A stretch of DNA of 54,452 bases from Sphingomicrobium sp. (lineage in GTDB: Bacteria > Pseudomonadota > Alphaproteobacteria > Sphingomonadales > Sphingomonadaceae): positions 1 to 54,452 of the forward strand of contig DATJKE010000104.1 in NCBI GenBank assembly GCA_035491735.1, written 5' to 3'. The position numbers and the translations under genes are program-made. Below, piece after piece: positions 5,042 through 25,719 of this stretch. The notes under the pieces are model-generated. The model had not been told where the DNA came from and did not search any database. It was given only the letters and a program-made list of their open reading frames with translations. Positions within the stretch are counted from its first letter, which is position 1; each line of letters starts with the position of its first letter.

Positions 5042-5259
5042 GGCCACCCCCCCCTGCCGGACCCTACTGACATTGAGCAAGAAAAAGAAGGTGCCGGCCC
5101 AACGGGTCCTTTCGGGCCGAGCAAACGTTGCAATGTAGGAGCTGTCTTGCCATCGGCGGTGCATGTCTCTGACGCGGTCCCGCCAATGCCCAATCCTCGC
5201 GTACACGGACGCGCACGCGCGCGTCCGTAGGGGTGCGACTCTTGTGACTTTTGGCGATC

Positions 5260-10211: not shown

Positions 10212-11621
10212 GTGGCCACCGCCGACACCCTAACCCGCGACTATATCGTCAAGGACATTTCGCTCGCCGATTTCGGCCGCAAGGAAATCGAAATCGCCGA
10301 AACCGAAATGCCGGGGCTGATGGCCCTCCGCCAGGAGTATGGCGCGGCGAAGCCTTTGAGAGGAGCCCGGATCACCGGCTCGCTGCACATGACCATCCAG
10401 ACCGCGGTGTTGATCGAAACGCTAACCGCGCTGGGCGCCGAGGTTCGCTGGGCCTCGTGCAACATCTTCTCGACGCAGGACCACGCCGCTGCGGCAATCG
10501 CGAGGTCGGGCGTTCCGGTGTTCGCGGTCAAGGGCGAAACGCTCGAGGAATATTGGGACTATGCCGCTCGTATCTTCGACTGGGGTCAGGACCAGACCTG
10601 CAACATGATCCTCGACGACGGCGGCGACGCCACCATGTTCGCGCTGTGGGGCGCACGGGTCGAGGCGGGGGAGAGCCTGTTCACGCCGCAGAATGAGGAA
10701 GAGGAGATCTTCGTCGCGACGCTGAAGCGCTTCCTAGCCGAGCGGCCGGGCTATCTCACCAAGACGGTCGAGACGATCAAAGGCGTCTCTGAGGAAACCA
10801 CCACTGGCGTCCATCGCCTCTACGACCTCGCCAAGCAGGGCAAGCTCCCTTTCCCGGCGATCAACGTCAACGACAGCGTCACCAAATCCAAGTTCGACAA
10901 CCTCTACGGCTGCAAGGAAAGCCTGGTCGACGCCATTCGCCGGGCGACGGACGTCATGTTGGCCGGCAAGGTCGCGACCGTCGCCGGCTTCGGCGACGTC
11001 GGCAAGGGCTCGGCGGCATCGCTACGCAACGGCGGCGCCCGCGTACTGGTGACTGAGGTCGATCCTATCTGCGCGCTGCAAGCGGCGATGGAAGGCTTTG
11101 AAGTCGTGACGATGGAGGAAGCGGCCAAGCGCGCCGACATCTTCGTCACCGCGACCGGCAATATGGACGTCATCACGCTCGATCACATGCGCGAAATGAA
11201 GGACATGGCGATCGTCTGCAACATCGGCCACTTCGACAGCGAGATACAGATCGGCGCGCTCAACAATTACAAGTGGACCGAGATCAAGCCGCAGGTCGAC
11301 GAGGTCACTTTCCCCGACGGCAAGCGCATCATCGTCCTGTCCAAGGGGCGGCTGGTCAATCTCGGCAATGCCACCGGCCACCCGAGCTTCGTGATGAGTT
11401 CCAGCTTCACCAACCAGGTGCTGGCGCAGATTGAGCTCTGGACCAAGTCGGACTCCTATCAGAACGACGTCTATGTCTTGCCCAAGCAGCTCGACGAGAA
11501 AGTCGCGGCGCTCCACCTCGACAAGCTCGGCGTCAAACTGACCAAGCTTTCGTCCAAGCAGGCGGCCTATATCGGCGTCGAGCCGGAAGGCCCGTTCAAG
11601 CCGGACCACTACCGCTACTAA
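10212..11621 (+). CDS. ahcY: Adenosylhomocysteinase
   Basis: [55 protein letters not shown]-terminal DHYRY. Confidence 0.98.
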
Positions 11622-11626
11622 AACGC

Positions 11627-12589
11627 CTATTCAGGGGTAAATCGGCGCTCCCGGATCCAGCGGCTGGCGAGAAATTTCTCGCCGGCGCTGACCGGTAGCC
11701 CCGCATGCTGCGCGGAGGGATCGGGAACGCCCGAAGAATCGGCGTTGCGGAACAGCAGGCCGTCCCCCTTCTTGCCTTTCACCTTGAGGCCGGTGGACAG
11801 GAATTCTGTCTCGCCGCCCTCATAATCGTCATTCAAATAGACCAGGAACGTCAGCACACGCTGGTTTTCGGAATCGCTTATCGCGTCGAAGTGAGGGCGG
11901 TATTGTTGCCCCGGCCGATATCGCAGCACCTGGAGCGGTTCGCCCTGTTTGACGTGGGTGTTGCTGGCTTCCGCCAGGCGGCGGCAGAGCGCGTGGATGG
12001 CCGGGCTCTCGCTTACGAGAGGGAATCCGATCGCGTCGGAAGTACGAACCGGATTTGGCACCTGCTGTCCGGTTTGCGGATCGACTACCAGGGACGGCCG
12101 AAGCGACGGCGCGGATCGCTCGATCAGGAAATCGCACTCCTCGGCCGAAAACAGGCCGGAAAAGAGTTGGACTTCCGGCGACGATGAGAGCTGCTCGCTG
12201 GGGAAGGGGCCTTTCGGCTCCCCAGCCTCGCCAAGCTGCATCGCGCGGATCGCTTTCATTTCGCGCACCGCGTCTGCATCGGATTGCGCAGCCCCTTCCA
12301 ATAGCTTGATCGCTGCGCCCCAATCGGCGGCACCACCTGTCCCGTTGGCGACGAACGCCCGGTAAGTCGCGGCCGCCGATGTGCTGCCGGCTTGTGCGGC
12401 CTTGCCATAAAGGTCGCGGGACAGCGCTAGGTCCCGGTTCACCATGTCGCCCGACAAAGCCATGGCGGCGAGCATTTCCAGCGCGCCGGCATCACCACTC
12501 CGAGCGGCTTGACCCAGCAGGTCCATGCCCTGGCGAAACTGCCTTGACGCAAACAGCGCCTGGGCCCGGTCGACTATCCCTTCAGCCAT
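11627..12589 (-). CDS. Sel1-like-repeat prolyl 4-hydroxylase-like 2OG-Fe(II) oxygenase
   Basis: EEC..LI, VRTS, EPLQVLRY..GQ.Y.PHFD (HxD), RVLTFLVYLN...GGETEF, HAGLPV..GEK (distal His and 2OG-binding Lys); N-terminal Sel1-like repeats (AA.SGD..A, KAAQAG, GTGG..DW..A). Confidence 0.9.
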   Translation of the reverse strand: MAEGIVDRAQALFASRQFRQGMDLLGQAARSGDAGALEMLAAMALSGDMVNRDLALSRDLYGKAAQAGSTSAAATYRAFVANGTGGAADWGAAIKLLEGAAQSDADAVREMKAIRAMQLGEAGEPKGPFPSEQLSSSPEVQLFSGLFSAEECDFLIERSAPSLRPSLVVDPQTGQQVPNPVRTSDAIGFPLVSESPAIHALCRRLAEASNTHVKQGEPLQVLRYRPGQQYRPHFDAISDSENQRVLTFLVYLNDDYEGGETEFLSTGLKVKGKKGDGLLFRNADSSGVPDPSAQHAGLPVSAGEKFLASRWIRERRFTPE

Positions 12590-12625
12590 GGCCCCTTGTT
12601 GGCAGCGGCTCTTCGCGCCCGCTAC

Positions 12626-12655
12626 AAAAAAAAGGCCGGGGCAAATGCCCCGGCC
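12626..12655 (-). terminator. Intrinsic terminator after TonB-dependent receptor B
   Basis: Minus strand GGCCGGGGC-attt-GCCCCGGCC followed by T8. Confidence 0.85.
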
Positions 12656-12682
12656 AAAAGGTTTGAGTGATTATCGATCGGA

Positions 12683-15600
12683 CTAGAAGCGCGCCCGGAA
12701 CCCGGCGAAGAACCGGCGCCCGAGGACGTTGTAGATGGCGCTGCCCGCGCCAGTCGCGGTCGTGCCCAACGGTGGCTTCTTGTTGGTGAAGTTGTCGATA
12801 CCGAAGAAGAACAGATAGTCCTTCCCAAGGCCGCCCAGGCTCTTGATGTTATAATCAAGGCGGATGTCATGATAGAAGACCGCCGGATAGTTCTTGTCAT
12901 CCGCAAAGTCCGCGTTGAACGGCGGGCAGGCTCCGGTAATCGGGTTGCAAGCGCCCGACGCCTTATTCTGGTCTTCATAGGCGGCGGAAACGGCCATCTT
13001 GCCTATGTAGCTCATCTGATAGCCGAGGGTGAACGGACCATAGGTCCCCGCGACATCCCAGCGGAACTCATCCTGCGGATCGCCGAGCTCCCCTAGAATC
13101 CTGTTCTCAAGCGACAGGAAGGTCGGGTTCTCGAAATTGCTGATCTGGATATTGTGCGTGTAGATCAGCCGGGTATCGAATTTCACCGGACCGATGTCGG
13201 TGCGATACGCCACTTCCGTGTCGACACCCTTGCGGACGCGCTTGGCGAAGTTCTGGGGCCCCGACAGCAGTGAGTTCCCCAGGACCTGACCCGGCACTTC
13301 GCCGAAAGGACCGAGGCCTGGACCCTGCCAACGCTGGAACAGCCCACAGAAGGGGTTGTTCAGGTTCGGTGCGTCGTAGCAGCTGTTGACGATCGTCTGG
13401 GCGCTGAGCGAGACGATCACGTCGTTCACGACGATCTTGTACCAGTCGACGCTGATCGAAAGACCCGGGACCCAGCGCGGCTGGATGACCGCACCGACCG
13501 TGTAGGAATTCGATTTTTCCGGCAGGAGGTCAGGGTTGCTGCCGCTCAAGATGGGCAGCGAAATGGTGACGCTCGGCAGCGTGCCGAAGAGTGCACCGAG
13601 GTCGGCCAGACAGTTCGCCGGACGGTTGGGATTGTTGGCGATGTTTGCCGTCTGGCACGGATCGATGAAGCCCGGTGCGAAGTTCGGAACGACCGGGAAG
13701 CCGGTTTCCGAAACGTTCGGGGCGCGGATCGCGCGGCCGTAGTTACCGCGGAAGCGGAGGTCGCGGACCGGGGCCCATTCGAGGCCGATGTTGTACGTTT
13801 TCACCGTACCGATCGCGCCGCCATACCAGGACAGACGCCCTGCGCCGCTCAGCGTCAGGTCTTCAAAGAAGGGCTCATCCTTCATGATCGGAACCTGAAT
13901 TTCGCCATAGAGCTCCTTCACCTTGAACGGATCCGGATCGAAGTCGCCGATGGAAACGCCGTTGGTGAAGCCGTCCGCCACGAACGGATCCTGCTTGTAG
14001 CTATTCTTTTCCTTGCGATATTCGCCGCCGATCACAAAGCTGACGGGGCCGCCTGGAAGTTCGAACAGCTGGCTGGAATCGCCGGCAACGAAGCCGAGGA
14101 TGTCCAGCTGGCTCATCCACGCCTTGTTGCGGGCGTTGTAGGTGAAGTAGGCCGCAGACGCCTTATTATCGCGCCCGCCGAACGGATTGTACGGAATGCA
14201 GGCCGCGATGTCCTGAGGCAGACGAGCAATATTCGCGGCGGTTCCGCCGAAAGCATCGCCATTAGCCGCCAATGGAGCAAACTTCGCGCGGCACTGAATG
14301 CCTGCGCCCGGGTTTGCAGGATCGATCCCGGCGTCCATCGCCAGCATGAAGCGCTGCTTGTCGACGAAGCCGAAGGTGGTCGTGTCTTCCTTCATCTTCC
14401 CGTAGTTGACCGAAACTTCGTAGTTCCAGTCATCGTTGAAGTTGCCGCGGACGCCGCCAACCACGCGATAGGTGTCACGCTTGAATTCCTCGTCGCGGAT
14501 GCCCGAGTCCGCCAGATGGCGGGCAATCACGAAGCGGTAGGTACCGGCCGCGATCTGCGCCTGTTGAGCAGCCGTAAGGTTGCCGAGAATGGTCAACCCG
14601 GTGCCCGGATCGGTGGAGGTATTGGGGCACGCAGCGGTGAGGCTGGTGTTGCAGTGTGAAGCCAGGATCTCGTTGGCGATCGTGGTCCGCTGGGCAGGGG
14701 TCAGGAACGGATTGTCGATCCGGACGCGCTCGCGGGAGTCGAACTGAGTCTGCTGGCCCTGGATGAAGGACGGGCCGAAGTTCGATCCGCGAGTCTTGAC
14801 GCGAACCCACTTGGCTTCGACGAACGGCTCGAACGCATCGCTGACGGTGTAGTGACCCAGCAGGTTGAAATTCACCCGGTCCATCTTCGGCAGCACCGAC
14901 AGCAATTGGGCTTCGCGGCCAGTCTGGCCATTGCCGCCTACGATGCTGCCGATGATGCCCGTACCAACGCGGGTGCCGGTCTGCGGCAACAGGTTGCCAG
15001 CCGCATCGAACACAAAGGTGCAGTTATAAGGGGAGCCGCCGACTGTCGTGGCCGCGCCATCGGAGGGACCCAGGCCCGTGCCGCAATCCGCGTCGGCGGG
15101 CCGTTGGTTGATCGGGATCAGGCCGAAGCGATTGATGCTGGCGCTGCGGATGTCCCTGAAGAAGGTGCGGTCCGCAACATCGTCACTGCCGTGCCGGTCA
15201 ATTGCAAGCGCCGGATCGACGTCGACCACCAGGAAGCCGTCCTGACTGCGCAGCCACGGAATGTCCGAAGCGAAGATGCGGTCCTGATGGGCATATTCGC
15301 CATGAACCGTGACGTTGCCGCGGCCATCGTCGAAATTGTGGCCGTACATTGCGGAAACATACTGGTTGCCGCCGAAACCTTCCCACGAGGTCGCTGCATT
15401 GCCGCGAACCTGCAGGCCGGTGAAATCGCGCTTCAAGATGAAGTTGACGACACCGGCAATGGCGTCCGAACCGTACACGGCCGAGTTACCGCCGGTGACG
15501 ATGTCGACGCGGTCGACCAGGTCGTTCGGGATGGTGTTGACGTCGGGCGAAACGGCGTTGTTGAGAATGTCGGCGCCGACGTGACGGCGGCCGTTGACCA

Positions 15601-16045
15601 GCGTCAGGGTGCGGACCGTGCCGAGGCCGCGAAGGTCGAGCAGGTTGAGGCCGGCGATGCCGATGCCGAGACCTGGGTTCGACTGGGCGAAAGTGCTGCG
15701 GAGCTGCGGTAGCTCGTTCAGCGTGTCGCCGATGCTGATCGACGATTGCTGAATGAACGATTCGCCGCTGATCGAGGTGATCGGAACCTGCGATTCAAGG
15801 TTCGGACGGCGGATGCGCGAACCGGTAACGACGATCGCCTTGTCCTCGCTCTCGGCCGACTTCTGCAACACTTCCTGAGTGCCCGAAGCGGCGTCCTGAG
15901 CAGGAGTGTCCTGGTCGGTTGCTTGTTCCGTAGTCGTGGGTGGCGGCGCAGCGTCCTGAGCAAATGCCGGAGTGGCAATAAAGGCAAGACCGCAAGCGGC
16001 GAATGTCTGGAGAGCCGTTGCTCCCAACAGCATCCTCTTAGTCAT
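12683..16045 (-). CDS. TonB-dependent receptor B (1120 aa, Cys-rich loops)
   Basis: Signal peptide ending PAFA, IVVTGSRI TonB-box region, LRGLG..RTLTLVNGRR and GGNSAVYGSDAIAGVVNF plug motifs, C-terminal RF. Confidence 0.96.
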   Translation of the reverse strand: MTKRMLLGATALQTFAACGLAFIATPAFAQDAAPPPTTTEQATDQDTPAQDAASGTQEVLQKSAESEDKAIVVTGSRIRRPNLESQVPITSISGESFIQQSSISIGDTLNELPQLRSTFAQSNPGLGIGIAGLNLLDLRGLGTVRTLTLVNGRRHVGADILNNAVSPDVNTIPNDLVDRVDIVTGGNSAVYGSDAIAGVVNFILKRDFTGLQVRGNAATSWEGFGGNQYVSAMYGHNFDDGRGNVTVHGEYAHQDRIFASDIPWLRSQDGFLVVDVDPALAIDRHGSDDVADRTFFRDIRSASINRFGLIPINQRPADADCGTGLGPSDGAATTVGGSPYNCTFVFDAAGNLLPQTGTRVGTGIIGSIVGGNGQTGREAQLLSVLPKMDRVNFNLLGHYTVSDAFEPFVEAKWVRVKTRGSNFGPSFIQGQQTQFDSRERVRIDNPFLTPAQRTTIANEILASHCNTSLTAACPNTSTDPGTGLTILGNLTAAQQAQIAAGTYRFVIARHLADSGIRDEEFKRDTYRVVGGVRGNFNDDWNYEVSVNYGKMKEDTTTFGFVDKQRFMLAMDAGIDPANPGAGIQCRAKFAPLAANGDAFGGTAANIARLPQDIAACIPYNPFGGRDNKASAAYFTYNARNKAWMSQLDILGFVAGDSSQLFELPGGPVSFVIGGEYRKEKNSYKQDPFVADGFTNGVSIGDFDPDPFKVKELYGEIQVPIMKDEPFFEDLTLSGAGRLSWYGGAIGTVKTYNIGLEWAPVRDLRFRGNYGRAIRAPNVSETGFPVVPNFAPGFIDPCQTANIANNPNRPANCLADLGALFGTLPSVTISLPILSGSNPDLLPEKSNSYTVGAVIQPRWVPGLSISVDWYKIVVNDVIVSLSAQTIVNSCYDAPNLNNPFCGLFQRWQGPGLGPFGEVPGQVLGNSLLSGPQNFAKRVRKGVDTEVAYRTDIGPVKFDTRLIYTHNIQISNFENPTFLSLENRILGELGDPQDEFRWDVAGTYGPFTLGYQMSYIGKMAVSAAYEDQNKASGACNPITGACPPFNADFADDKNYPAVFYHDIRLDYNIKSLGGLGKDYLFFFGIDNFTNKKPPLGTTATGAGSAIYNVLGRRFFAGFRARF

Positions 16046-16145
16046 GTTTTGAGACCCCTAGGTGTAAATTTCCCAGCCCCTCATCGGCGAAGCGGCGGAA
16101 TTTTCATACTGTCAGTTGGGGTGAAAAAAGAGATTCCTACTGCGA

Positions 16146-16163
16146 TGTTACATTAATGCCACA
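16146..16163. promoter_or_regulatory. 18-bp palindromic operator upstream of receptor B
   Basis: TGTTACATTAATGCCACA (TGT-N12-ACA), 101-118 bp upstream of the ATG; similar site upstream of receptor A. Confidence 0.5.
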
Positions 16164-16245
16164 TTCAGGTGACGGAGCACTCAAAAATCTTAATCCCAAT
16201 CAGTGGGATACCCCTGGGGGAGGGGTCGCAATGCATCGCTTGCGC

Positions 16246-18036
16246 TCAAGTCTCGTTCGGAACGACGGGATAGCAGTCGGCAATAGGACCCAGAGCCTGC
16301 TTTAGCGGTCCGAGCCACGGATCGAATGCTCGCCATTGCTCGAGCCCCTCGCGGTTGATCGGGCGCCTTACTTGTTCGGAACTGGCTGTCCGAACCTCAC
16401 GCTTGTTTTCGTGAAACCGCAGGCAACTATCGTCAAAAGCGACCCCAAGATAATCGAGCATTCTGCGAATCTCGAATTCGGGCTCGGTCACCAAATTCTC
16501 ATGGATCACGCGATGGATCCTGCCCGGAGCGATCACATCGAAATGGGCCAGCATGCGGATGTAATCCGAATAGAAACGGCCGATGTCGTGCAGGTCATAG
16601 GTAAACTCCTGGCCCGCCGCAAAAAATTGCCGGTAGTTTGAGAAGCAACAGGCAAGCGGATGCCGGCGCGCGTCGATGATCTTTGAATTGGGCAAGATCG
16701 ACAGGATGAAACCGATGTGCAGCCAATTGTTCGGCATCTTGTCGATGAAGAACGGCTTATCCGCTCGCCTCTTCAAACCGACATTCCATAGATAGGCACG
16801 GCCAAGCCGCTGTAGTTCCGCTCCCGGCAATTCAGCGAGGTGTTCGAGATATGCGCCGCCCTCGGCGACGGCCGTTTTCTCGTCGGATAGAAGGTCTGCA
16901 AGGTTGGATATCTCCGACAGCTCGCCGGTCGCCTCGATATCCGGATGGGACGACAAAATTTGCTCGATCAGAGTCGACCCGGAGCGAGGCAGCCCGAGTA
17001 CGAAGATGGCATCGGGGGCAGATTCTCCACCATGTTGGCGTTGGGCGAAATAGTTGCGGTCGAACAGCGCAATCGATTTATCGACGAGGCGAGTGATGGC
17101 ATCGGGATCATGATCGCTCGAAAGCGACCGCAACCGATTGCCCTCAACATAGGCTTCGAAAGACGATTGATAGTCTCCGAACTGTTCGGACGCACGTCCG
17201 AGAGCGAAGAAGAGTTGTGCCAGATCGGTTTCGCTTACACCGGGCGTCCGCACCAGCTGCTTCAACGTATCGAGATCGGTTTCGGTGAACCGGGAGGCTT
17301 TGAGGTCGCCGATCGCGCACCAGGCCTCACCAGCGCTGGGTCGAGCTTCGATCGCACGCCGATATTTCGCGACAGCCTCATCCTGCTCACCGATCGTCCG
17401 GAGCACGTGGCCATAACTCACCCAATGTTCCGGATTGTCCGGGTATCGCTGGACGAGGCGCCCGTAGAGTTGCAGACCCTCGTCAATCAGCCGCGCTCCG
17501 GGCTTTTCATCCGGCCAGGCGATTCTGCTGCGAAACGAGCCCGGTTTGCTGACTTCCCCGCCTGATCGAACCTGAGCAAGTGCCTCCCGGAGGGCTATCG
17601 CACGATCATAGTCGGGCGCGACGGCAAGCGCCCCTTCTACAAAGCGCTCCGCCTGGTCGAATTGGCCCATTCGCGCCGCGACTTCGGCGACCATCCGCAT
17701 GGCTGCGGCATTTTCGGGATGTTCCTCGAGGAACTTCAGGGCGAGGCGATGGCTTTTGCCAGGCTGTTGTTGCGCCAGCGTCATAAGCGCTTCGAACAAG
17801 GGAGGCTGGAACATCGACAGATCGACAGCCTCCTGCTCCGCATGGCGCGCTTCTTCGATCCGGGCTTGGCGCCGAAGCGCCAATCCAAGGAGGCTACGCG
17901 CATCGACGCATTCAGGATCGCCTTCGATGATAATCCGTGCCTGGCGCTCCGCGGACGCGGGGTCGCTGGCTAGCAGCCGTCGCCCATTCAGGAGGGCCTG
18001 CTCCTTGCTTCCTTCCGATTGAATCGTCGCGCTCAC
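16246..18036 (-). CDS. TPR-repeat sulfotransferase 2 (Sulfotransfer_3 / protein-tyrosine-sulfotransferase-like)
   Basis: GLPRSGSTLIEQIL 5'-PSB loop, DKMP, RRHP..CCFS 3'-PB motif, TASSEQVR.PI; N-terminal TPRs; GTG at 18036 overlaps the upstream TGA (track start 18048). Confidence 0.93.
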   Translation of the reverse strand: MSATIQSEGSKEQALLNGRRLLASDPASAERQARIIIEGDPECVDARSLLGLALRRQARIEEARHAEQEAVDLSMFQPPLFEALMTLAQQQPGKSHRLALKFLEEHPENAAAMRMVAEVAARMGQFDQAERFVEGALAVAPDYDRAIALREALAQVRSGGEVSKPGSFRSRIAWPDEKPGARLIDEGLQLYGRLVQRYPDNPEHWVSYGHVLRTIGEQDEAVAKYRRAIEARPSAGEAWCAIGDLKASRFTETDLDTLKQLVRTPGVSETDLAQLFFALGRASEQFGDYQSSFEAYVEGNRLRSLSSDHDPDAITRLVDKSIALFDRNYFAQRQHGGESAPDAIFVLGLPRSGSTLIEQILSSHPDIEATGELSEISNLADLLSDEKTAVAEGGAYLEHLAELPGAELQRLGRAYLWNVGLKRRADKPFFIDKMPNNWLHIGFILSILPNSKIIDARRHPLACCFSNYRQFFAAGQEFTYDLHDIGRFYSDYIRMLAHFDVIAPGRIHRVIHENLVTEPEFEIRRMLDYLGVAFDDSCLRFHENKREVRTASSEQVRRPINREGLEQWRAFDPWLGPLKQALGPIADCYPVVPNET

Positions 18037-19817
18037 GCCTGTGCCCATCGCTCGGGCACATTTGGATAGAAATCGACCACATCGCCGAGAGCAGTACGGA
18101 GGGGCTCAAGCCACGGTTCGTACGGACGAACCTCATCACTTGAGCTGGAATAGATCGGCTGGCGGACTTGCTCCGAGCTGGATGTCTTTACTGCCCGCGG
18201 ATTTTCATGCTGCCGCAAACAGGCTTCCTCAAACGGAAGGTCCAAATAGGCGAGCAGCTTCCTGATTTCCTCCTCGGGATTGGCCGTAAGCCTCTCGTAA
18301 TTCACCCGGTGGATTCGCCCCGGCAGCACCTGGTCGTAATGCGCCATCAGCTCGACGTAGGCCGAATAGTAGCGGCCGAGGTCCTCGAGATCGTAGGCGA
18401 AATTCTTGCCGCTCGCGAAGTTTTGCCGGAAGTTGGAAAAGCAGCAGCTCATCGGATCGCGGCGGACGTCGACGATGTAGGCGTTCGGAAGGATCATCTG
18501 GATGAGGCCGACGTGAAGCCAGTTGGACGGCATCTTGTCGGTGAAGTGGGGGCGTTTCGATTGGCGCTTCGATCGCGTCGAGTAAATATAGGACGCTCCC
18601 ATCGCAGACATTTCGTCAGGAGCGAGCCCGGTCAGCTTGTTCAGATAGGGCGGAGCTTCCATGCCGGCTACATGGCCGTCGGCAAGGAATTCGGTGAGCA
18701 GGATCAGCTCGAACAGTTCCTCGGTACCCTCGACCTGGCTGTGGGAGGACAGGATCTGCTCGACCAGTGTCGAGCCGGCACGCGGCATGCCGATGATGAA
18801 GATCGGCTCCCTGGTCGCCAGCCCGGAGCCCTTGCGGCTCTCGAAAAATTCCGGGGTAAACAGCGCCTTTGACTTTGCGACATGATCTTCCACGGAATTG
18901 GCGAAGTATGTCACCAGACTGCGTTTCAGCTTGTTCGCACTCTCATAGTGGCGGAATGACGCGGCGAAATCGCCCTGGTCGCGATACGCCTTGCCGAGGG
19001 CAAATTGGATTAGACTGCTCTGCTGCTTGCTTGTGCTGCTACTTTCAACAGCCTGGAGCATGGTTTCGATATCGTCGGGCGCGAACTTGAAAGTCTTCAG
19101 ATCGGCCAGCGACCACCACCCCTGACCGTAGGCTGGATTGATCTCAACAGACCGCCGGTAAGCGTCAAGGCTCTCCTGCGCGCGACCCGAGATCCGCAGC
19201 ACATGGCCATAGCTCAGCCAATGGTCCGGATTGCCCGGCCGCTCGGCCACCAACTGCTCGTTGCGTCGAAGCGCGTCATCGAATTCGTCCGTTCCAACCG
19301 GCGGCTCGTCGGCTGCGGACGAGGGGACGGCAAGGGCCTGTTCCTGGGCCCTGAACAAACTGCGAAGGTCATTCGCTGCCTCATCGAACGATGGTGCAAG
19401 ATGCAATGATCGCCGGAGAAATTCTTGCGCCCTTGCCAACTTTCCCCGTGAGGTCGCCAGTCGCGCAGACAATCGCAGTGCTTCGGGATCGTGCGGAGTG
19501 TCGTTGAGAAATAGGCCGAGCAGGCGCTCTGCGTTCGACAGCTGATCTGTGGCTAGATATTGCGCCACGCGGACCAGCACGGGGTCGGCTTTGGAAATCC
19601 GTATACCCTGCTGTTCGGCGTCATTTGCTCCCGCCACGTCCCCGGTCAGGCGCAGCGCCGCCGAAAGGATGAAATAAGTCTCGGCGATCGATGGCTCGAC
19701 GCGGATGATCTCGCGGGCCTGACGGACTGCGGCCTTTGGATTGGAAGGTGTCAGGCGGCGCGCGCTGGCCAAGGCCTCTTCAATGGTTGCCGTGCCCTGA
19801 GCGGGGGAATCATTCAT
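18033..19817 (-). CDS. TPR-repeat sulfotransferase 1 (Sulfotransfer_3 / protein-tyrosine-sulfotransferase-like)
   Basis: GMPRAGSTLVEQIL, DKMPSN, RRDP..CCFS, TSSSEQVRQPI; N-terminal TPRs; ATG 19817 (track TTG 19829). Confidence 0.93.
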   Translation of the reverse strand: MNDSPAQGTATIEEALASARRLTPSNPKAAVRQAREIIRVEPSIAETYFILSAALRLTGDVAGANDAEQQGIRISKADPVLVRVAQYLATDQLSNAERLLGLFLNDTPHDPEALRLSARLATSRGKLARAQEFLRRSLHLAPSFDEAANDLRSLFRAQEQALAVPSSAADEPPVGTDEFDDALRRNEQLVAERPGNPDHWLSYGHVLRISGRAQESLDAYRRSVEINPAYGQGWWSLADLKTFKFAPDDIETMLQAVESSSTSKQQSSLIQFALGKAYRDQGDFAASFRHYESANKLKRSLVTYFANSVEDHVAKSKALFTPEFFESRKGSGLATREPIFIIGMPRAGSTLVEQILSSHSQVEGTEELFELILLTEFLADGHVAGMEAPPYLNKLTGLAPDEMSAMGASYIYSTRSKRQSKRPHFTDKMPSNWLHVGLIQMILPNAYIVDVRRDPMSCCFSNFRQNFASGKNFAYDLEDLGRYYSAYVELMAHYDQVLPGRIHRVNYERLTANPEEEIRKLLAYLDLPFEEACLRQHENPRAVKTSSSEQVRQPIYSSSSDEVRPYEPWLEPLRTALGDVVDFYPNVPERWAQA

Positions 19818-19879
19818 TTGCCCGTCCAAGCACAGCCTACACCGGAAAACAAAAGGATTTCATTCGGTTGCACGCTGGC

Positions 19880-19914
19880 AAAAAGAAAAGGGGCCGGGCT
19901 CTTGTCCCGGCCCC
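19880..19914 (-). terminator. Intrinsic terminator after TonB-dependent receptor A
   Basis: Minus strand GGGGCCGGG-acaagag-CCCGGCCCC followed by TTTTCTTTTT. Confidence 0.85.
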
Positions 19915-19933
19915 CGAAGATTTGAATGACCGC

Positions 19934-22900
19934 CTAGAACCGAGCCTTGAAGCCGGCGTAGAAGAAGCGTCCGATGTTCCGGAAGACGCCCGTGCCACCG
20001 CCAATGCCGGTTGCTCCGAGCGGAGGCTTTTCATTGGTGATATCGTCGATGCCGACATAGAAATTATAGTTATTGCTGACATCGATCGCTGCCCGAACGT
20101 CGTGGTACCACATCGTCGGATAGAATTTCTGATCGGCAAAATCAGGATCCTGGGCCGGGCGACCCTGCTTCGAGAACCAGGTTTCATACTCGGTTCCGTT
20201 GAGCAGCTGTTTGCCGATGTAGCGCAGCTGATAACCGAACGAGAACTTGCCCGTCTTCAATGTGGTGTTCCAGCTGAACTCGTCCTTCGGGTCATTCAGT
20301 TCCAAAAGGATTTGGTCCGCAATACCCGGATCGGTGGGGTCGAGGAACTGGTCGTTCTGGAGAACATGAGTCCAAATCACGCGCGTATCGAGCATGCCGA
20401 TGTCGAACAGCCTGCCTCGATATGCTGCTTCGAAGTCGAGGCCCCGCACCTTGAGCTTCGCATAGTTCAGCGGGATGAGATGCAAGCTATTCTCGATGAT
20501 CCGCCCTTCTTCTTCGCCGCCCGGTCCGCCGCCCGGTCCCGCACGCTCGAACAGCGGGCAGAAGGGATTGTCGAGGTCGGGCAAGTCATAACAGGCGTTG
20601 ATCACGGCCTGGGCAGAAGGCGAGGTGATCACATCGTGGACGGTGATGTTGTAGTAATCGACCGACAAGGAGAAGCCGGGGACCCAGCGCGGCGTGAGAA
20701 CGCCGCCCAGCGTGATCGAATCCGAGCTTTCCGGTTTCAGGTCCGCGTTGCCGCCCGACAGATAGGCAAGCGACCGGGTATATTCGAAGTTGAAATCCGC
20801 CGGCACGCCGGCCGCTAGGCAATTGGCCTCCCGGAATTCTGATCCCTGTGCCCGGTTATCCAGAGCGCAGGGATCTTCCGGCGCCGGTGTGAAGTTCGAG
20901 CCCAGCGGCGTGAAAGCGTCCGCGAGACTTGGCGCGCGTACCGCTCGCGAAAAATTGCCGCGGAAGCGGATATCTCGGGTCGGAGCGAGTTCGCCGCCGA
21001 TGTTATACGCCCACACGCCGCCGAACGTTTTGTACTTTGCGTAGCGCGCTGCCCCCGAAAGGGTCAGCTCGTGGATGATCTGATCCTTCAGGATCGGTAG
21101 CCGGATTTCGCCGAAGACTTCATTCACCTTGAACGTCGGTGGGGTGAAGTCGGGAATCGCGTTGTAGAAAGTCATGCCGGCCGCCGTGGAATCATCCTGC
21201 TTGTAGCTGACGTCGTAGTTGCGATGCTCTGCGCCAAGCGCGAAACCGATCGCGCCGCCAGGCAGATTGATGAACTCGCTCGTGTCGCCCGAAACAAAGG
21301 CGTTCACCACAAACTGCTTGATCCAGCCCTTGGCCAGCGAATCCTGAAGGATATAGTCCTTTGCGGCCTGGCTGATGTTGCCGGATCCGAACGGGTTCAA
21401 CGGCACGCAGTTTGCGACATCGTTGGCGAGCTGGGCCGCGGCGAATGCAGGATCCAGATTATTGGCCAGCGGTATGGCATAATCAGGGTCGATTTTCGCA
21501 CGGCAGACGATATTGCCCGTGCCGTCGTCGACAGCGTCCTTGGCCAGCAGGAATCGCTGCGTGTTGACGTTGCCGAAGATGCGAGTTTTTTCCTTCAGCT
21601 TGCCGTAATTCAGCGAGACTTCGTACGACCAGTCGTCATTGAAATCGCCGCGTACGCCGGTGACGATCTGGAAGGTGTCGCGGCGAGCCTTTTCCTCACG
21701 GTTCCCCAAATCCAGGTAATTACGGTACATGTAGAAATAGCTCTGACCATGTCCTTCCAAGACGTCGCGAGCCTGGGGGTTGAGGAATGGATTGTCTGTG
21801 AAAAATACGTCGCGGCTGAAGGCTTCGTTGACATTGGGTGTGCTTGGATCGTCTCCCAGCGGATGGCCGTCCGGATAAACCTCGGATGTCGACGGAGTGA
21901 AGAACGGACCCGACGCATTACCAAGCGAGTCCGTCCGAACCCACTTCGCCTCGACGAACGGCACCAGCGCCGGCGAGACCTCATAATGGCCGATCAGGTT
22001 GAACGCGTAGCGATCCAGGGCTGGCGACAGCCCGAACTGCTTTCCGTCACGAGCATTGTCGCCATTGCCGCCCAGGAAATAACCGAAATATGGCACGCCG
22101 ATGCGCTCGCCAGTCTGTGGCGCGAGCGTTCCGTCAGGTTGGAAGATATAAGGATTGACGAATAAACCGGGCTGGCGGTTATTGGTGCCTTCCAGATAAG
22201 TGAAATAGCCAAAATAGGGCCCGGACCAAACGGTGCCGCCATTGGCGTAATAAACGAACCGCACGTCTTCGAAGAACCTGCGGTCGGGAGTGCCGTCCGA
22301 TGACTCGCCAACCGGATCTTCTTCAACCTGGAAGAAACCGCACACGTTCCTGAAGCATTTGCCACGCTGGGAAGCGTAGAAATCGTCCTGGCGGGCATAT
22401 TCGAAATTGAGCGCGACATTGCCGCGGCCGTCGGCGAAATTCGTGCCGCCGAGCGCGCTTATATAATAGCTGCCGGCGTCGCCATATTTGCTGATGCCGC
22501 CCTGGCCGCGCACCTGCAGACCCTCATAATCCTGTTTCAGGACGAAGTTCACGACGCCGGCGATCGCGTCGGAACCGTAGATCGCGGAATTGCCGCCGGT
22601 GACGACGTCAACGCGCTCGATCAGGTCGGTTGGGATGGTGTTGGTGTCGACTTCGACCGCGTTGCCGAGGATGTTCGAAGCAATGTGACGGCGGCCGTTC
22701 ACCAGCGTCAGGGTGCGCTGCGTACCGAGGCCGCGAAGATCCAGGATGTTGAGACCCGACGTGCCGAGGAAGCGAGTCGAGTTAGACTGGTTGAACGTGT
22801 TCCTAAGGGCCGGAAGCTCGTTCAGCGTATCGCCGACAGATGTCTGTCCGGTTTCGAAGAATGCGTCGCCTTGAACCGATGTGATTGGAACAGTCGATTC

Positions 22901-23140
22901 AAGGTTGGGGCGCTTGATGCGGGAACCCGTGACGACAATGGCGGCGCAATTGGGGTCGCTGGGGTTGGTGGCGCAGTCGACACCTTGGTTAGCTGCCGCC
23001 GTTGGTGCGGGTTGCTCTGCTGCTGCGGCATCCTGATCCGCCGGCGGAACGTCCTGCGCGAAGGCAGGCTGGGCCAGCATCACGGCACTGGTAAATGCGG
23101 CCGATTGGAGCACGGTCGCGCCGAGCAGCTTCATCCTCAT
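19934..23140 (-). CDS. TonB-dependent receptor A (1068 aa, Tyr-rich and Cys-rich loops)
   Basis: Signal peptide ending PAFA, IVVTGSRIKRPNLES, plug motifs LRGLGTQRTLTLVNGRR and GSDAIAGVVNF, C-terminal ARF; clear paralog of receptor B. Confidence 0.96.
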   Translation of the reverse strand: MRMKLLGATVLQSAAFTSAVMLAQPAFAQDVPPADQDAAAAEQPAPTAAANQGVDCATNPSDPNCAAIVVTGSRIKRPNLESTVPITSVQGDAFFETGQTSVGDTLNELPALRNTFNQSNSTRFLGTSGLNILDLRGLGTQRTLTLVNGRRHIASNILGNAVEVDTNTIPTDLIERVDVVTGGNSAIYGSDAIAGVVNFVLKQDYEGLQVRGQGGISKYGDAGSYYISALGGTNFADGRGNVALNFEYARQDDFYASQRGKCFRNVCGFFQVEEDPVGESSDGTPDRRFFEDVRFVYYANGGTVWSGPYFGYFTYLEGTNNRQPGLFVNPYIFQPDGTLAPQTGERIGVPYFGYFLGGNGDNARDGKQFGLSPALDRYAFNLIGHYEVSPALVPFVEAKWVRTDSLGNASGPFFTPSTSEVYPDGHPLGDDPSTPNVNEAFSRDVFFTDNPFLNPQARDVLEGHGQSYFYMYRNYLDLGNREEKARRDTFQIVTGVRGDFNDDWSYEVSLNYGKLKEKTRIFGNVNTQRFLLAKDAVDDGTGNIVCRAKIDPDYAIPLANNLDPAFAAAQLANDVANCVPLNPFGSGNISQAAKDYILQDSLAKGWIKQFVVNAFVSGDTSEFINLPGGAIGFALGAEHRNYDVSYKQDDSTAAGMTFYNAIPDFTPPTFKVNEVFGEIRLPILKDQIIHELTLSGAARYAKYKTFGGVWAYNIGGELAPTRDIRFRGNFSRAVRAPSLADAFTPLGSNFTPAPEDPCALDNRAQGSEFREANCLAAGVPADFNFEYTRSLAYLSGGNADLKPESSDSITLGGVLTPRWVPGFSLSVDYYNITVHDVITSPSAQAVINACYDLPDLDNPFCPLFERAGPGGGPGGEEEGRIIENSLHLIPLNYAKLKVRGLDFEAAYRGRLFDIGMLDTRVIWTHVLQNDQFLDPTDPGIADQILLELNDPKDEFSWNTTLKTGKFSFGYQLRYIGKQLLNGTEYETWFSKQGRPAQDPDFADQKFYPTMWYHDVRAAIDVSNNYNFYVGIDDITNEKPPLGATGIGGGTGVFRNIGRFFYAGFKARF

Positions 23141-23250: not shown

Positions 23251-23268
23251 TGTGGCGATTTTATCACG
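23251..23268. promoter_or_regulatory. 18-bp imperfect palindromic operator upstream of receptor A
   Basis: TGTGGCGATTTTATCACG, 111-128 bp upstream of the ATG; shares the TGTGGC half-site and length with 16146..16163. Confidence 0.45.
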
Positions 23269-23340: not shown

Positions 23341-25719
23341 ATGTCTCATGATTTGCGGGGGCAGGGCAGGGTGATCGTCGGCGCACAGGCTGCTGCGGCA
23401 ATCATTGTCATCGCCGCTTTATGGGTCGCGCTCGCGGCGGCATTGGCCATTCTTGCGGCACGCCGGCTTCGCCGCGCACAGTCGGTGCTCGGCGCCGCAC
23501 GAACCATGCGTGCGCTTCTTGATGCCGCTCCGGCGCGTGCGCTGCTGGTATTTGGCGACGGAAGTATCGAGGCTGATTCAAAGCTGGTTCGCGAACTTGG
23601 GCTTCCCTCGCCGCCGGAACGGCTGGAGCAATTGGCCGGCGACGATCATGGTTTCGATCGCGAGGACTTCGCCGCCTTTGGCGAAGTCCTGGACGATGTC
23701 CGGTTGAGCGGCGCTGCGATCCGCCGGCAATTGCGTTTGGCCGGCCGTAGCAAGATCGTCGAGTTGCGCGCCGAGTTGGCGCCGCCTCCCGCCAAGCCTG
23801 GTTCGGTGCTGGTCTGGCTGTTCGACATCAGCGACGCCGATGCCGAGCGGGTCAAGCTGATCCGCCGGCTCGACCAGACCGAAGGTGCCCTGGATGCGCT
23901 CACCCACCTGATCGAAAGCGCGCCCTTCCCAATGTGGTATCGCGGGCCCGACCTCAGCCTCGGTCTGGTCAACGCCGCTTTCGTCACTGCTGTCCAGGGC
24001 CGCGATGCAGCCGAAGTGATCGAACGAGGCAATGAGCTGATCGATGCCGTCGGGTCGGATAGCGCCCGCGCCGGGGCCGAGGTCGCACTGGAAAGCGGGC
24101 GGCCCTATTCGCGGACCCAGCCGGCGACCATCGGCCAGGAGCGGCGGATGCTGCGGATCGTCGATGTGCCCTTGCCTACGGGTGCTGTCGCCGGCTTCGC
24201 GGTCGACATCCAGGATCTGGAGGATGCCCGGATCGAACTGGCCCGGCACCAGGAATCGCAACGCGAGCTGGCGGACCGCATGACCGCCGGCGCGGTACAG
24301 TTCGACGGTGAGCGGCAACTCGCTTTCTTCAATCAGCCGTTCGCGATCATGGCTCAGCTGGAGCCCGAATGGCTGTCGGAAAGGCCGGAATTCGACCGGG
24401 TTGTGGAGCGGATGCGTGAGAATGGCCGCTTGCCCGAAGTCCGCGATTTCCCGGCCTGGAAGGCCGAGCGGCGCGACTGGTTCACGTCCGCCGAAGAGAC
24501 CATCGAGGAAGACTGGATCCTAGCCAACGGCGACCATCTTCGACTGCTTGCTCAGCCATTGCCCGACGGTGGCCTCAGGCTGATCTTCGAGGACCGCACC
24601 GAGCAGGTCCGGCTGGCTTCGGCGCGCGATACTCTGTTGCGCGTTCGCGCCGCGACCTTCGACAATCTGTTCGAAGTGATCAGCGTGTTCGCTTCGGACG
24701 GACGGCTTTACCTATGGAACCGTCGGTTCAGCGAGCTTTGGGACCTCGACGAAGGCTGGCTGGCGGAGCATCCGCGCGTCGACGAACTGGTCCCGGCCAT
24801 GGCCAAGAGGCTGGTCAATCCGACCGCCGCCGCCCAGGTGCGCGAGCTGGTTCGGTCGACCACCAGCGGCCGCCAGTCCGGGACCGGCCGATTGTCGCTG
24901 ACCGATGGGCGCCACCTCGACTTTGCCGCAGTGCCTTTGCCCGACGGAAATGCGTTGTTCACGATGATCGATGTCACCGATTCCAGCCGGATCGAGGCCG
25001 CGCTTCGGGAGCGGGCAACTGCGCTCGAGGAGGCAGACCGGGTCAAGACCGATTTCGTCGCAAACATGAGCTACGAGCTTCGAACTCCGCTGACGTCGAT
25101 CGGCGGGTTCGCTGAAATGTTGGCGGCGGGATATGCCGGCAAGCTGCCCCCGGCGGCGTCGGATTATGTCGGCGCGATACTGGAATCGGTCGACCGCCTG
25201 TCGAAGCTGATAAACGACGTGCTCGACCTGACCCAGGGCGATACGCAAGGCGTCGTACTGGAACGCGAGCGCGTCGACATTGCCGGTATGTGCCGCGCCG
25301 CCTGCGAGGCGCTGCGCGCTCGCGCCGAAGAAAAGGGCCAGAAGCTGGAGGTCAATCTTGAGCCGAGCGCAGGCAGCGTCATCGGAGATGCCCGCCGTTT
25401 GCGGGAATCGGTCGAGCATATTCTTCGCAATGCCGTCGCTTACACCGATGACGGCGGGCATGTGTGGCTCAGGGCAAGCGGTGACGACGAGCAGGCCGTC
25501 GTAACGGTCGTCGATGACGGACCGGGAATCCCAAAGGAGGACCAGGCTCAGGTGTTCGCCCGTTTCCACCGCTCCGGAGTCAGGGGTGAGGCCGCACTCG
25601 GCCTTGGCCTGCCGCTTACCCGCCAGTTCATCGAGGCCCATGGCGGTGCAGTCGAGCTGGAATCGGCGATCGGCAAGGGCACCAGTGTTTCGCTCACCAT
25701 TCCGCGCGCCCCGCAATGA
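23341..25719 (+). CDS. divL: PAS-domain DivL-type pseudo-histidine kinase
   Basis: N-terminal TM, several PAS-like domains, H-box NMSYELRTPL with Tyr in place of His, HATPase DDGPGI/GLGL; located directly upstream of tsaE. Confidence 0.82.
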   Translation: MSHDLRGQGRVIVGAQAAAAIIVIAALWVALAAALAILAARRLRRAQSVLGAARTMRALLDAAPARALLVFGDGSIEADSKLVRELGLPSPPERLEQLAGDDHGFDREDFAAFGEVLDDVRLSGAAIRRQLRLAGRSKIVELRAELAPPPAKPGSVLVWLFDISDADAERVKLIRRLDQTEGALDALTHLIESAPFPMWYRGPDLSLGLVNAAFVTAVQGRDAAEVIERGNELIDAVGSDSARAGAEVALESGRPYSRTQPATIGQERRMLRIVDVPLPTGAVAGFAVDIQDLEDARIELARHQESQRELADRMTAGAVQFDGERQLAFFNQPFAIMAQLEPEWLSERPEFDRVVERMRENGRLPEVRDFPAWKAERRDWFTSAEETIEEDWILANGDHLRLLAQPLPDGGLRLIFEDRTEQVRLASARDTLLRVRAATFDNLFEVISVFASDGRLYLWNRRFSELWDLDEGWLAEHPRVDELVPAMAKRLVNPTAAAQVRELVRSTTSGRQSGTGRLSLTDGRHLDFAAVPLPDGNALFTMIDVTDSSRIEAALRERATALEEADRVKTDFVANMSYELRTPLTSIGGFAEMLAAGYAGKLPPAASDYVGAILESVDRLSKLINDVLDLTQGDTQGVVLERERVDIAGMCRAACEALRARAEEKGQKLEVNLEPSAGSVIGDARRLRESVEHILRNAVAYTDDGGHVWLRASGDDEQAVVTVVDDGPGIPKEDQAQVFARFHRSGVRGEAALGLGLPLTRQFIEAHGGAVELESAIGKGTSVSLTIPRAPQ

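What the first reader, a model, noticed from the sequence alone, without database searches (positions are those of the whole stretch)
11627..23140. Candidate undescribed system: paired TonB-dependent receptors, each followed by dedicated protein-modifying enzymes (sulfation and proline hydroxylation)
Seen: order on the minus strand is receptor A, terminator, TPR-sulfotransferase 1, TPR-sulfotransferase 2, promoter region, receptor B, terminator, Sel1-prolyl-4-hydroxylase-like oxygenase. The receptors are paralogs (LLGAT.LQ...PAFAQD signal peptides, IVVTGSRI.RPNLES.VPITS) with similar terminators and upstream palindromes, so the unit looks like a duplicated receptor-plus-enzyme module. All three enzymes lack signal peptides and carry TPR/Sel1 repeats. 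No hydrolase, sulfatase, inner-membrane transporter or precursor peptide is present. Known: Sulfotransfer_3 includes protein-tyrosine sulfotransferases (eukaryotic TPST; Xanthomonas RaxST is a bacterial precedent for Tyr sulfation), P4H-type oxygenases act on peptidyl-Pro, and PAPS and 2OG are cytoplasmic. Inference: the enzymes modify the unfolded receptor precursors before Sec export, decorating surface loops for ligand binding or phage evasion. The alternative is that they modify imported or separately encoded peptides. I know of no characterised system of this kind, but cannot search the literature.
Basis: partly seen in the sequence, partly recalled or inferred. Interest (0 to 1): 0.88.

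Follow-up and report, generated by a model that had tools for sequence, protein, structure and literature searches.

The report
Enzymes that decorate TonB receptor loops
Two outer-membrane transporter genes in a soil bacterium are followed by enzymes resembling animal protein hydroxylases and sulfotransferases, and one proline in a surface loop of the transporter comes and goes with the hydroxylase gene across relatives, so these enzymes likely modify the transporters themselves before export.

Summary
The anatomy is confirmed: receptor A, terminator, two TPR-sulfotransferases, receptor B, terminator, Sel1-prolyl-4-hydroxylase (P4H). The enzymes keep their catalytic motifs, have no signal peptide, and no precursor peptide is evident. 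This scan noted similar clusters on other DNA before, without a substrate.

New here is a residue-level signal. A proline in extracellular loop 7 (N-F-A-P-G-x-x-D-P-C type; Pro791 in B, Pro752 in A) occurs in 44 of 44 related receptors with the P4H in their cassette and in 3 of 65 without. It switches with the gene in 8 of 11 independent tree pairs and never against it (p about 0.008). It held in 24 of 24 fresh loci and in 3 of 3 members of a second receptor family. So the P4H likely hydroxylates the receptor precursor, probably both A and B.

Tyrosine sulfation is weaker. Sulfotransferase-linked receptors have about 1.6-1.8 times as many loop tyrosines in two families, but there are only two supported pairs, and a third family shows nothing. 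About half of the P4H copies stand alone. No modification is shown biochemically, its purpose is unknown, and no paper on it was found.

The parts
19934..23140 (-). TonB-dependent receptor A (1068 aa): signal peptide, plug, predicted 22-strand barrel with large extracellular loops; 23 Tyr in loops
20885..20887 (-). Codon of Pro752 of receptor A (NFTPAPEDPC, loop 7): predicted hydroxylation site
21698..22387 (-). Loops 2-3 region of receptor A (residues 252-481) with 14 loop Tyr, including Tyr298 (Tyr in 13 of 15 sulfotransferase-linked relatives, 4 of 94 others): candidate sulfation sites
23251..23268 (-). Imperfect family palindrome upstream of receptor A (8 of 12 consensus positions)
19889..19915 (-). 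Intrinsic-terminator-like hairpin after receptor A
18033..19829 (-). TPR-sulfotransferase 1 (likely start ATG at 19817); PAPS-binding motifs intact
16246..18048 (-). TPR-sulfotransferase 2, overlapping the ST1 stop (likely GTG start at 18036, translationally coupled; inference)
16146..16163 (-). Family palindrome upstream of receptor B (11 of 12 consensus positions)
12683..16045 (-). TonB-dependent receptor B (1120 aa), 44% identical to A; 9 Tyr in loops
13673..13675 (-). Codon of Pro791 of receptor B (NFAPGFIDPC, loop 7): predicted hydroxylation site, an X-Pro-Gly triplet
12634..12655 (-). Intrinsic-terminator-like hairpin after receptor B
11627..12589 (-). Sel1-like helical domain + prolyl-4-hydroxylase domain (320 aa); His233, Asp235, His295, Lys305 invariant in 46 cassette homologs
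10212..11621 (+). ahcY: conserved border of the slot in which receptor-enzyme cassettes vary (context, not part of the system)
23341..25719 (+). PAS histidine kinase: the other conserved border of the slot (context)

Best explanation
The three enzymes are likely cytoplasmic protein-modifying enzymes whose substrates are the TonB-dependent receptors themselves: the Sel1-P4H likely hydroxylates one loop-7 proline that tracks its gene (Pro791 of B, probably also Pro752 of A), and the TPR-sulfotransferases possibly sulfate loop tyrosines of receptor A. The helical repeats would hold the unfolded precursor before or during Sec export, because Fe/2-oxoglutarate and PAPS are cytoplasmic and the sites end up on the outer face. 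The mature receptor would then show hydroxyproline (and sulfotyrosine) on its loops. Shown: gene order, intact catalytic motifs, no signal peptides, predicted loop position of the sites, co-variation of the proline with the P4H gene. Inferred: the chemistry, its timing, and the tyrosine arm. My odds are about 0.8 for the proline arm and 0.55 for the tyrosine arm. The purpose is a guess: without P4H the site is often Asn, Gln, Thr or Ser, so the hydroxyl would most likely supply a polar contact for loop structure or ligand binding rather than only disguise.
For: Proline arm. The motif [ND][FY][AST]P-x3-DPC is in 44 of 44 receptors with the P4H in their cassette and 3 of 65 without (109 of 117 rows; 8 with too little flank left out). 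It is the best of 3845 column/residue tests (phi 0.93; next 0.66 is its neighbour Phe754). On a tree built without loop columns, 10 supported independent pairs give 8.9 same, 0 opposite, p about 0.004; on the bootstrapped 78-row tree, 11 pairs give 8 same, 0 opposite, p about 0.008. On extending flanks, 6 of 7 motif-bearing loci showed a P4H (one partly seen before) and 0 of 13 motif-less loci did. In a fresh sample drawn from the enzyme side, 24 of 24 receptors lying directly upstream of a P4H with loop 7 readable carry the motif, none in the training set. Genome level: 33 of 56 P4H-positive genomes hold the DNA pattern against 4 of 245 negative ones, three of those not in a receptor gene. 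In a second receptor family about 25% identical to A, 3 of 3 members with a P4H have Pro at the same distance from DPC and 0 of 25 others listed do. The triplet is Ala-Pro-Gly in 31 of 44 and 13 of 24; X-Pro-Gly is the collagen P4H site (abstract listing of 10.1101/2023.06.28.546674). The enzyme's best sequence and fold matches are peptide-directed P4Hs. Another enzyme class shows the same logic: all 5 TPR-2OG_Oxy_5-linked receptors carry a Pro-rich loop-7 insert and 0 of 71 others do; 2 of 2 supported pairs agree. Tyrosine arm. Loop Tyr averages 24.9 in 15 sulfotransferase-linked receptors against 13.9 in 93 others, with barrel Tyr 25.5 against 23.9; 28.6 against 17.6 in the second family, barrel 24.7 against 26.3. 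In the window A has 23 loop Tyr and B has 9. The best catalytic-domain matches are protein-tyrosine sulfotransferases. The genome encodes CysD- and CysN/C-like proteins for PAPS.
Against: No modification was observed. The motif was found by scanning the same data that gave 44 of 44. Exceptions: motif without a P4H in the cassette in L130, L244, L031 (ortholog elsewhere), G881 (no P4H at E 1e-70 or better) and L375 in the second family. 23 of 56 P4H-positive genomes lack the motif, and in 10 of them searched only 3 had a receptor with Pro at that distance, against 1 of 5 P4H-negative genomes, so the enzyme has other or unknown substrates. More distant P4H types next to receptors show no motif (L312, L369). 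Tyrosine arm: only 1-2 supported independent pairs; 14 of 93 receptors without a sulfotransferase also have 20 or more loop Tyr; a Xanthomonadales family shows no difference (6.5% in 25 linked, 6.8% in 15 unlinked); L059 and L273 are sulfotransferase-linked with only 13 loop Tyr. Two Arg that follow the catalytic Glu in animal enzymes are Phe and Leu in ST1, and most loop Tyr of A lack acidic neighbours. No column tracks the AspH-type enzyme. A terminator separates each receptor from its enzymes.
Confidence: 0.7

Rival explanations
1. Ligand coupling: the receptor imports a peptide or small molecule that the cytoplasmic enzyme then converts, as proposed for PiuA-PiuC and CciT-CciO. The loop proline and tyrosines would track the enzyme because both are tuned to the same ligand.
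For: Receptor-plus-oxygenase pairs are read this way in PMC12004943 (passages). Loop residues shape ligand sites and Tyr is a common ligand contact (established knowledge). Receptor and P4H distances correlate across 31 cassettes (Mantel r 0.46), which linkage alone also gives.
Against: A change of ligand should move many pocket residues, yet one column stands out of 3845 and it is a proline, mostly in X-Pro-Gly, beside a prolyl-hydroxylase-like enzyme. The same Pro appears in a second receptor family only with P4H, bar one exception. No inner-membrane transporter or catabolic gene is in the cassette, and 50 of 93 close homologs first examined have no enzyme beside them. The oxygenase folds like P4H (rank 1) rather than PiuC (rank 44).
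Confidence: 0.12
2. Split answer: the P4H modifies the receptors, but the two sulfotransferases act on something else (another exported protein, a lipid or glycan, or the new hydroxyl itself), and the loop tyrosines are a clade trait.
For: Few independent pairs for Tyr; null result in the Xanthomonadales family; low-Tyr linked receptors L059 and L273; missing acidic-subsite Arg. PMC2938197 proposes hydroxylation followed by sulfation of the hydroxyl for collagen-like substrates (passages).
Against: The excess Tyr is confined to loops in two separate families. Sulfotransferase-less neighbours in the tree have fewer (L244 9, L213 19, L130 18, against 20-34). Nine of 15 sulfotransferase-linked receptors have neither the Pro nor a P4H, so sulfation of that hydroxyproline cannot be general.
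Confidence: 0.13
3. Biosynthesis of a secreted modified peptide or siderophore-like metabolite that the receptor re-imports or exports (the RaxST-RaxX type, or the reading of Iyer et al. 2010).
For: PMC2938197 predicts siderophore-like products for related neighbourhoods (passages); RaxST sulfates a small secreted peptide (abstract listings).
Against: No precursor ORF, peptidase, exporter or synthetase in the cassette here or in the wider relatives examined. It does not explain why one receptor proline tracks the P4H.
Confidence: 0.05

Closest known systems
HMW1C-HMW1A (Haemophilus) and FlmG-flagellin (Caulobacter): cytoplasmic enzymes that modify a surface protein before export
   Same: Cytoplasmic enzyme, surface-protein substrate, modification before export (10.1101/2020.09.10.281741, passages); FlmG binds its substrate through an N-terminal TPR domain (PMC7591256, passages).
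   Different: Those add sugars to adhesins or flagellins. Here the predicted chemistry is prolyl hydroxylation and sulfation, and the predicted substrate is a beta-barrel transporter loop.
Chlamydomonas, Bacillus anthracis, viral and collagen prolyl 4-hydroxylases; Pseudomonas PPHD
   Same: Fold (TM 0.80 to the algal enzyme), HxD..H..K centre, peptide-directed family. Bacterial P4Hs act on a protein, EF-Tu (PMC7864055, passages; title of PDB 5v7y).
   Different: N-terminal Sel1-like domain; gene sits behind outer-membrane receptors; predicted target is one proline in an outer loop.
Animal TPST1/2 and Xanthomonas RaxST
   Same: PAPS-binding motifs, the Glu and Lys at catalytic positions, best PDB matches.
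   Different: TPR fusion; the two Arg after the Glu are absent in ST1; no RaxX-like precursor or RaxAB-like exporter.
CciT-CciO / PiuA-PiuC / Fiu-YbiX
   Same: TonB-dependent receptor followed by a cytoplasmic 2OG oxygenase.
   Different: There the oxygenase is proposed to process the imported cargo (PMC12004943). Here it is P4H-like with helical repeats, and the receptors are about 1050 aa with only weak plug matches to siderophore receptors.
Dioxygenase / sulfotransferase / TonB-receptor neighbourhoods of Iyer et al. 2010 (PMC2938197)
   Same: Co-occurrence of 2OG oxygenases, sulfotransferases and TonB-class receptors in proteobacteria.
   Different: In the 12 passages seen, the reading is siderophore-like metabolites, or collagen-like and tail-collar proteins as substrates; the receptor is not named as substrate. 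The supplement was not read.

Membership tests
Prolyl 4-hydroxylase (collagen/algal type) | HxD...H iron triad and 2OG-binding Lys | tested here: met
   His233, Asp235, His295, Lys305 invariant in 46 homologs, aligned to the algal enzyme
Prolyl 4-hydroxylase (collagen/algal type) | P4H-type double-stranded beta-helix with peptide-binding loops | tested here: met
   Model pLDDT 96.5; top fold hits 2jig and 3gze, TM 0.80-0.81
Prolyl 4-hydroxylase (collagen/algal type) | trans-4-hydroxylation of peptidyl-proline | not testable with these tools
   Only indirect: co-varying proline
Protein-tyrosine sulfotransferase (TPST/RaxST) | 5'-PSB and 3'-PB motifs, catalytic Glu and Lys | tested here: met
   GMPRAGST/GLPRSGST, EL, DKMP, RRDP/RRHP..CCFS; the roles of these residues are recalled
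Protein-tyrosine sulfotransferase (TPST/RaxST) | Basic subsite for acidic residues beside the Tyr | tested here: not met
   The two Arg of EETRxIPR align to Phe and Leu in ST1; their role is recalled. So ST1/ST2 are not filed as TPST members, only as working like them
Protein-tyrosine sulfotransferase (TPST/RaxST) | Tyr as acceptor | tested here: inconclusive
   Loop-Tyr excess in two families, null in a third
TonB-dependent transporter | Signal peptide, plug, 22-strand barrel, C-terminal Phe | tested here: met
TonB-dependent transporter | Known ligand class | tested here: inconclusive
   All NCBIfam hits far below cut-off; 14% identity or less to the solved structures listed
CciT-CciO / PiuA-PiuC | PiuC-family oxygenase beside an iron-uptake receptor | tested here: not met
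   PiuC is rank 44 in the fold search against rank 1 for P4H
RaxX-RaxSTAB type modified-peptide cluster | Small precursor ORF and dedicated exporter | tested here: not met
   No such genes in the cassette; a distant precursor was not excluded
Pre-export modifiers of surface proteins (HMW1C, FlmG) | Cytoplasmic location and repeat domain for substrate binding | tested here: met
   No hydrophobic N-terminus; TPR and helical repeats
Pre-export modifiers of surface proteins (HMW1C, FlmG) | Enzyme-dependent modification on the exported protein | not testable with these tools
   Needs proteomics

The most novel reading that the evidence does not exclude
Sphingomonads run a modular code of animal-like protein modifications on their outer-membrane transporters: swappable cassettes pair a receptor with a repeat-domain prolyl hydroxylase, a second oxygenase or a tyrosine sulfotransferase, and each enzyme has its own target site or insert in the receptor's outer loops, gained and lost with the enzyme.
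Probability: 0.5. Interest if true: 0.9.

Novelty: new variant of a known kind. Interest (0 to 1): 0.82.

Why it matters
Hydroxyproline and sulfotyrosine on surface proteins are thought of as eukaryotic. The bacterial examples seen here are EF-Tu hydroxylation and the secreted peptide RaxX. A site-specific hydroxyproline in a transporter's outer loop, installed before export, would be a new use of this chemistry in bacteria and would give a substrate to a widespread family of repeat-fused oxygenases and sulfotransferases that has none. The finding names exact residues, so one mass-spectrometry experiment in a cultured sphingomonad can settle it. It also offers soluble bacterial enzymes for site-specific hydroxylation and sulfation.

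Tried and rejected
Complex prediction of the P4H with a 50-residue loop-7 piece of receptor B gave no answer (0.28 and 0.15, mark 0.32); not used as evidence. Bulk proline content of loops does not differ (40.4 with P4H, 42.2 without), so a general Pro-enrichment reading was rejected. Acidic-Tyr counts did not separate the classes. Column scans for an AspH target found nothing clear (4-5 linked rows). A search for targets of stand-alone P4Hs in 10 genomes, with 5 controls, was inconclusive. Contigs of four RNA libraries (three studies) cover most of receptor B and pieces of A but almost none of the enzymes; contigs cannot rank expression and DNA may be present. PDB searches gave no ligand class for the receptors. 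L148 was first auto-labelled sulfotransferase-linked but holds only a 110-aa fragment and was recoded. Broken or partial receptors (under 850-900 aa) were dropped before counting. Literature: seven searches on this system found no paper on modified TonB receptors or these enzymes' substrates; three more were for precedents. The library lacks most subscription papers, and no supplements were read.

Full report
Observation. The five genes, their order and the two terminators are as described. Receptors A and B are 44% identical and the sulfotransferases 40%. Independent soil contigs bridge the gene junctions. The genome is a 2.2-Mb, 63% G+C assembly. Named records holding the nearest relatives of ST1 are mostly Sphingomonadales. 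The cassette lies between a PAS histidine kinase and ahcY.

The enzymes. The 320-aa oxygenase has a helical N-domain and a catalytic domain whose best sequence and fold matches are algal, Bacillus, viral and collagen prolyl 4-hydroxylases. Its iron triad and 2OG lysine are invariant in 46 cassette homologs. The sulfotransferase domains best match protein-tyrosine sulfotransferases and keep the PAPS motifs, but ST1 lacks two arginines that follow the catalytic Glu in the animal enzymes (residue roles recalled). None of the three has a hydrophobic N-terminus. The genome has CysD- and CysN/C-like genes.

The receptors. The model of A (pLDDT 88) is a plug plus 22-strand barrel. I assigned extracellular loops from strand alternation: L2 252-373, L3 408-481, L7 736-803 and others. 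No solved structure listed is closer than 14% identity, so the ligand is unknown.

A natural experiment. Close homologs occur in 42 of 151 genus genomes and 56 of 301 order genomes searched. Of the first 93, the next gene was a TPR-sulfotransferase in 11, a Sel1-P4H in 23 (plus 1 as second gene), a TPR-2OG_Oxy_5 in 5, a TPR-AspH in 3, and no enzyme in 50. The same five-gene cassette is intact in G080 and G183. Other combinations fill the same slot beside ahcY. The receptor therefore occurs without enzymes, and enzyme class changes along its tree.

The proline signal. Bulk loop proline is flat. A column scan of 117 receptors found one outlier: Pro at position 752 of A, in loop 7 just before a conserved Asp-Pro-Cys. 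With an alignment-free motif and P4H scored per cassette, the table is 44 of 44 against 3 of 65 (8 rows with short flanks left out). It is the best of 3845 tests. Independent pairs on a tree without loop columns go 8.9 same and 0 opposite of 10 (p about 0.004), and 8 same and 0 opposite of 11 on the bootstrapped tree (p about 0.008). Because the motif was found in these data, I tested it outside them. Extended flanks revealed a P4H at 6 of 7 motif loci and 0 of 13 motif-less loci (these labels then entered the 44). A fresh sample drawn with a P4H profile gave 24 of 24 adjacent receptors with the motif. A DNA pattern search of the same 301 genomes hit 33 of 56 P4H-positive and 4 of 245 negative genomes, with 2 hits for the reversed control; three of the four are not in receptor genes. 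In a second family about 25% identical to A, the three members with a P4H read GF(Y/F)PSGVDPC, and 25 others have no Pro there; one later locus, L375, has it without a P4H in the cassette. Many of those 25 had only 1.5 kb of flank. The triplet is Ala-Pro-Gly in 31 of 44. Both window receptors carry the Pro. Where it is missing the residue is Asn in 20, Phe 11, Leu 10, Thr 8, Gln 8, Ser 3 and other 3 of 63. A parallel case: the five Oxy_5-linked receptors alone carry a Pro-rich insert of about 20 residues in the same loop.

Limits of the proline signal. About 30 of the 62 P4H copies fetched have no such receptor beside them, and 23 of 56 P4H-positive genomes lack the motif. In 10 of those, 3 had some receptor with Pro at that distance, against 1 of 5 controls. 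In G866, G721 and G843 a motif-bearing receptor lies away from the P4H, which fits action in trans; G881 has the motif and no P4H at the cut-off. Distant P4H types show no motif.

The tyrosine signal. All 15 sulfotransferase-linked receptors have 20-34 loop Tyr (mean 24.9) against a mean of 13.9 in 93 others, 14 of which also reach 20. Barrel Tyr is level. Several carry DYYGDYYD-like stretches in loop 3. The second family repeats the contrast (28.6 in 13 against 17.6 in 16; L375, nested in the linked clade with a sulfotransferase just upstream and 31 loop Tyr, was left out of both means). But there are only 1-2 supported pairs, a Xanthomonadales family shows no difference, and two linked receptors are Tyr-poor. 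This arm is plausible, not established.

Mechanism. The simplest account is that the repeat domains catch the unfolded precursor in the cytoplasm, the catalytic domains modify chosen residues, and Sec and BAM then place them on the outer loops. This is inference. It follows the pattern of HMW1C and of the TPR enzyme FlmG (passages of 10.1101/2020.09.10.281741 and PMC7591256). The ligand-coupling rival, proposed for CciT-CciO (passages of PMC12004943), does not explain why the one outstanding column is a proline in X-Pro-Gly. The purpose is open. Polar residues replace the Pro in 40 of 63 cases, which hints at a structural or ligand contact; cassette swapping at one locus would also fit pressure from phages, which I did not test.

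Prior knowledge. Iyer et al. 2010 noted oxygenase, sulfotransferase and TonB-receptor neighbourhoods and read them as metabolite pathways or as modifying collagen-like proteins (PMC2938197, 12 passages, supplement not read). Seven searches found no report of hydroxylated or sulfated TonB receptors. This scan has recorded the cluster type on at least eight other windows, some suggesting the receptor as substrate without proof. Searches of those notes for the proline co-variation returned nothing.

Data note. One of the 44 P4H-linked receptors (L131) comes from G175 and one genome in the tally is G020; both are flagged unpublished and need the depositors' permission before publication. Removing L131 would leave 43 of 43.

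Verdict. A real, widespread, uncharacterised system. The proline arm has strong comparative support for the receptor as substrate at a named residue; the sulfation arm has moderate support. It is a new variant of pre-export surface-protein modification. Interest 0.82.

Noticed in passing
L140:10577-13885, L350-L353, L240 (receptor loop 7): Receptors followed by a TPR-2OG_Oxy_5 enzyme carry a Pro-rich loop-7 insert (GGTD..NP..P.PNP) and an extra Cys in loop 3, seen in 5 of 5 and in no others; a likely substrate tag for that enzyme. In the six cassettes read in full, these also hold a P4H.
   Followed up: partly
window 16146-16163 and 23251-23268; 93 upstream regions of relatives: An 18-bp palindrome (TGTnGCA-n4-TGCnACA type) lies mostly 110-150 nt before these receptor genes whether or not an enzyme follows (81 of 93 against about 7 in shuffles); the regulator is unknown.
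   Followed up: partly
L204-L207 (G000 contigs C34, C38, C65, C58): The same genome holds more such enzymes: a TPR-sulfotransferase directly before an 870-aa receptor, a run of TPR-sulfotransferase, TPR-AspH and TPR-Oxy_5, and two more distant stand-alone P4H homologs.
   Followed up: partly
L390, L416: A Sel1-P4H sits beside ahcY with no receptor directly upstream; its substrate in those genomes was not found.
   Followed up: partly
L213:4073-11146: A close relative of receptor A lies after a FecI/FecR-like pair and before an M13 peptidase, a hint that this receptor family may import peptides.
   Followed up: no
L164:381-1493: A gene resembling a nucleotidyltransferase-family protein (my recalled label, not scanned) converges on a receptor of this family in place of the usual enzymes.
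   Followed up: no
L059:7186-7980 and L140:537-1352: A short (about 265 aa) sulfotransferase-like ORF without TPR recurs near the slot; in L059 it lies between a Tyr-poor receptor and a TPR-sulfotransferase.
   Followed up: no
L375-L376 (G139): Three different receptor-plus-sulfotransferase cassettes are stacked in the kinase-ahcY slot of one genome, which has 13 Sulfotransfer_3 matches.
   Followed up: partly
window 3056-5206 and 6109-7971: A TIR-TPR protein and an angiotensin-converting-enzyme-like M2 peptidase lie near the slot; a similar peptidase is seen near ahcY in several relatives.
   Followed up: no
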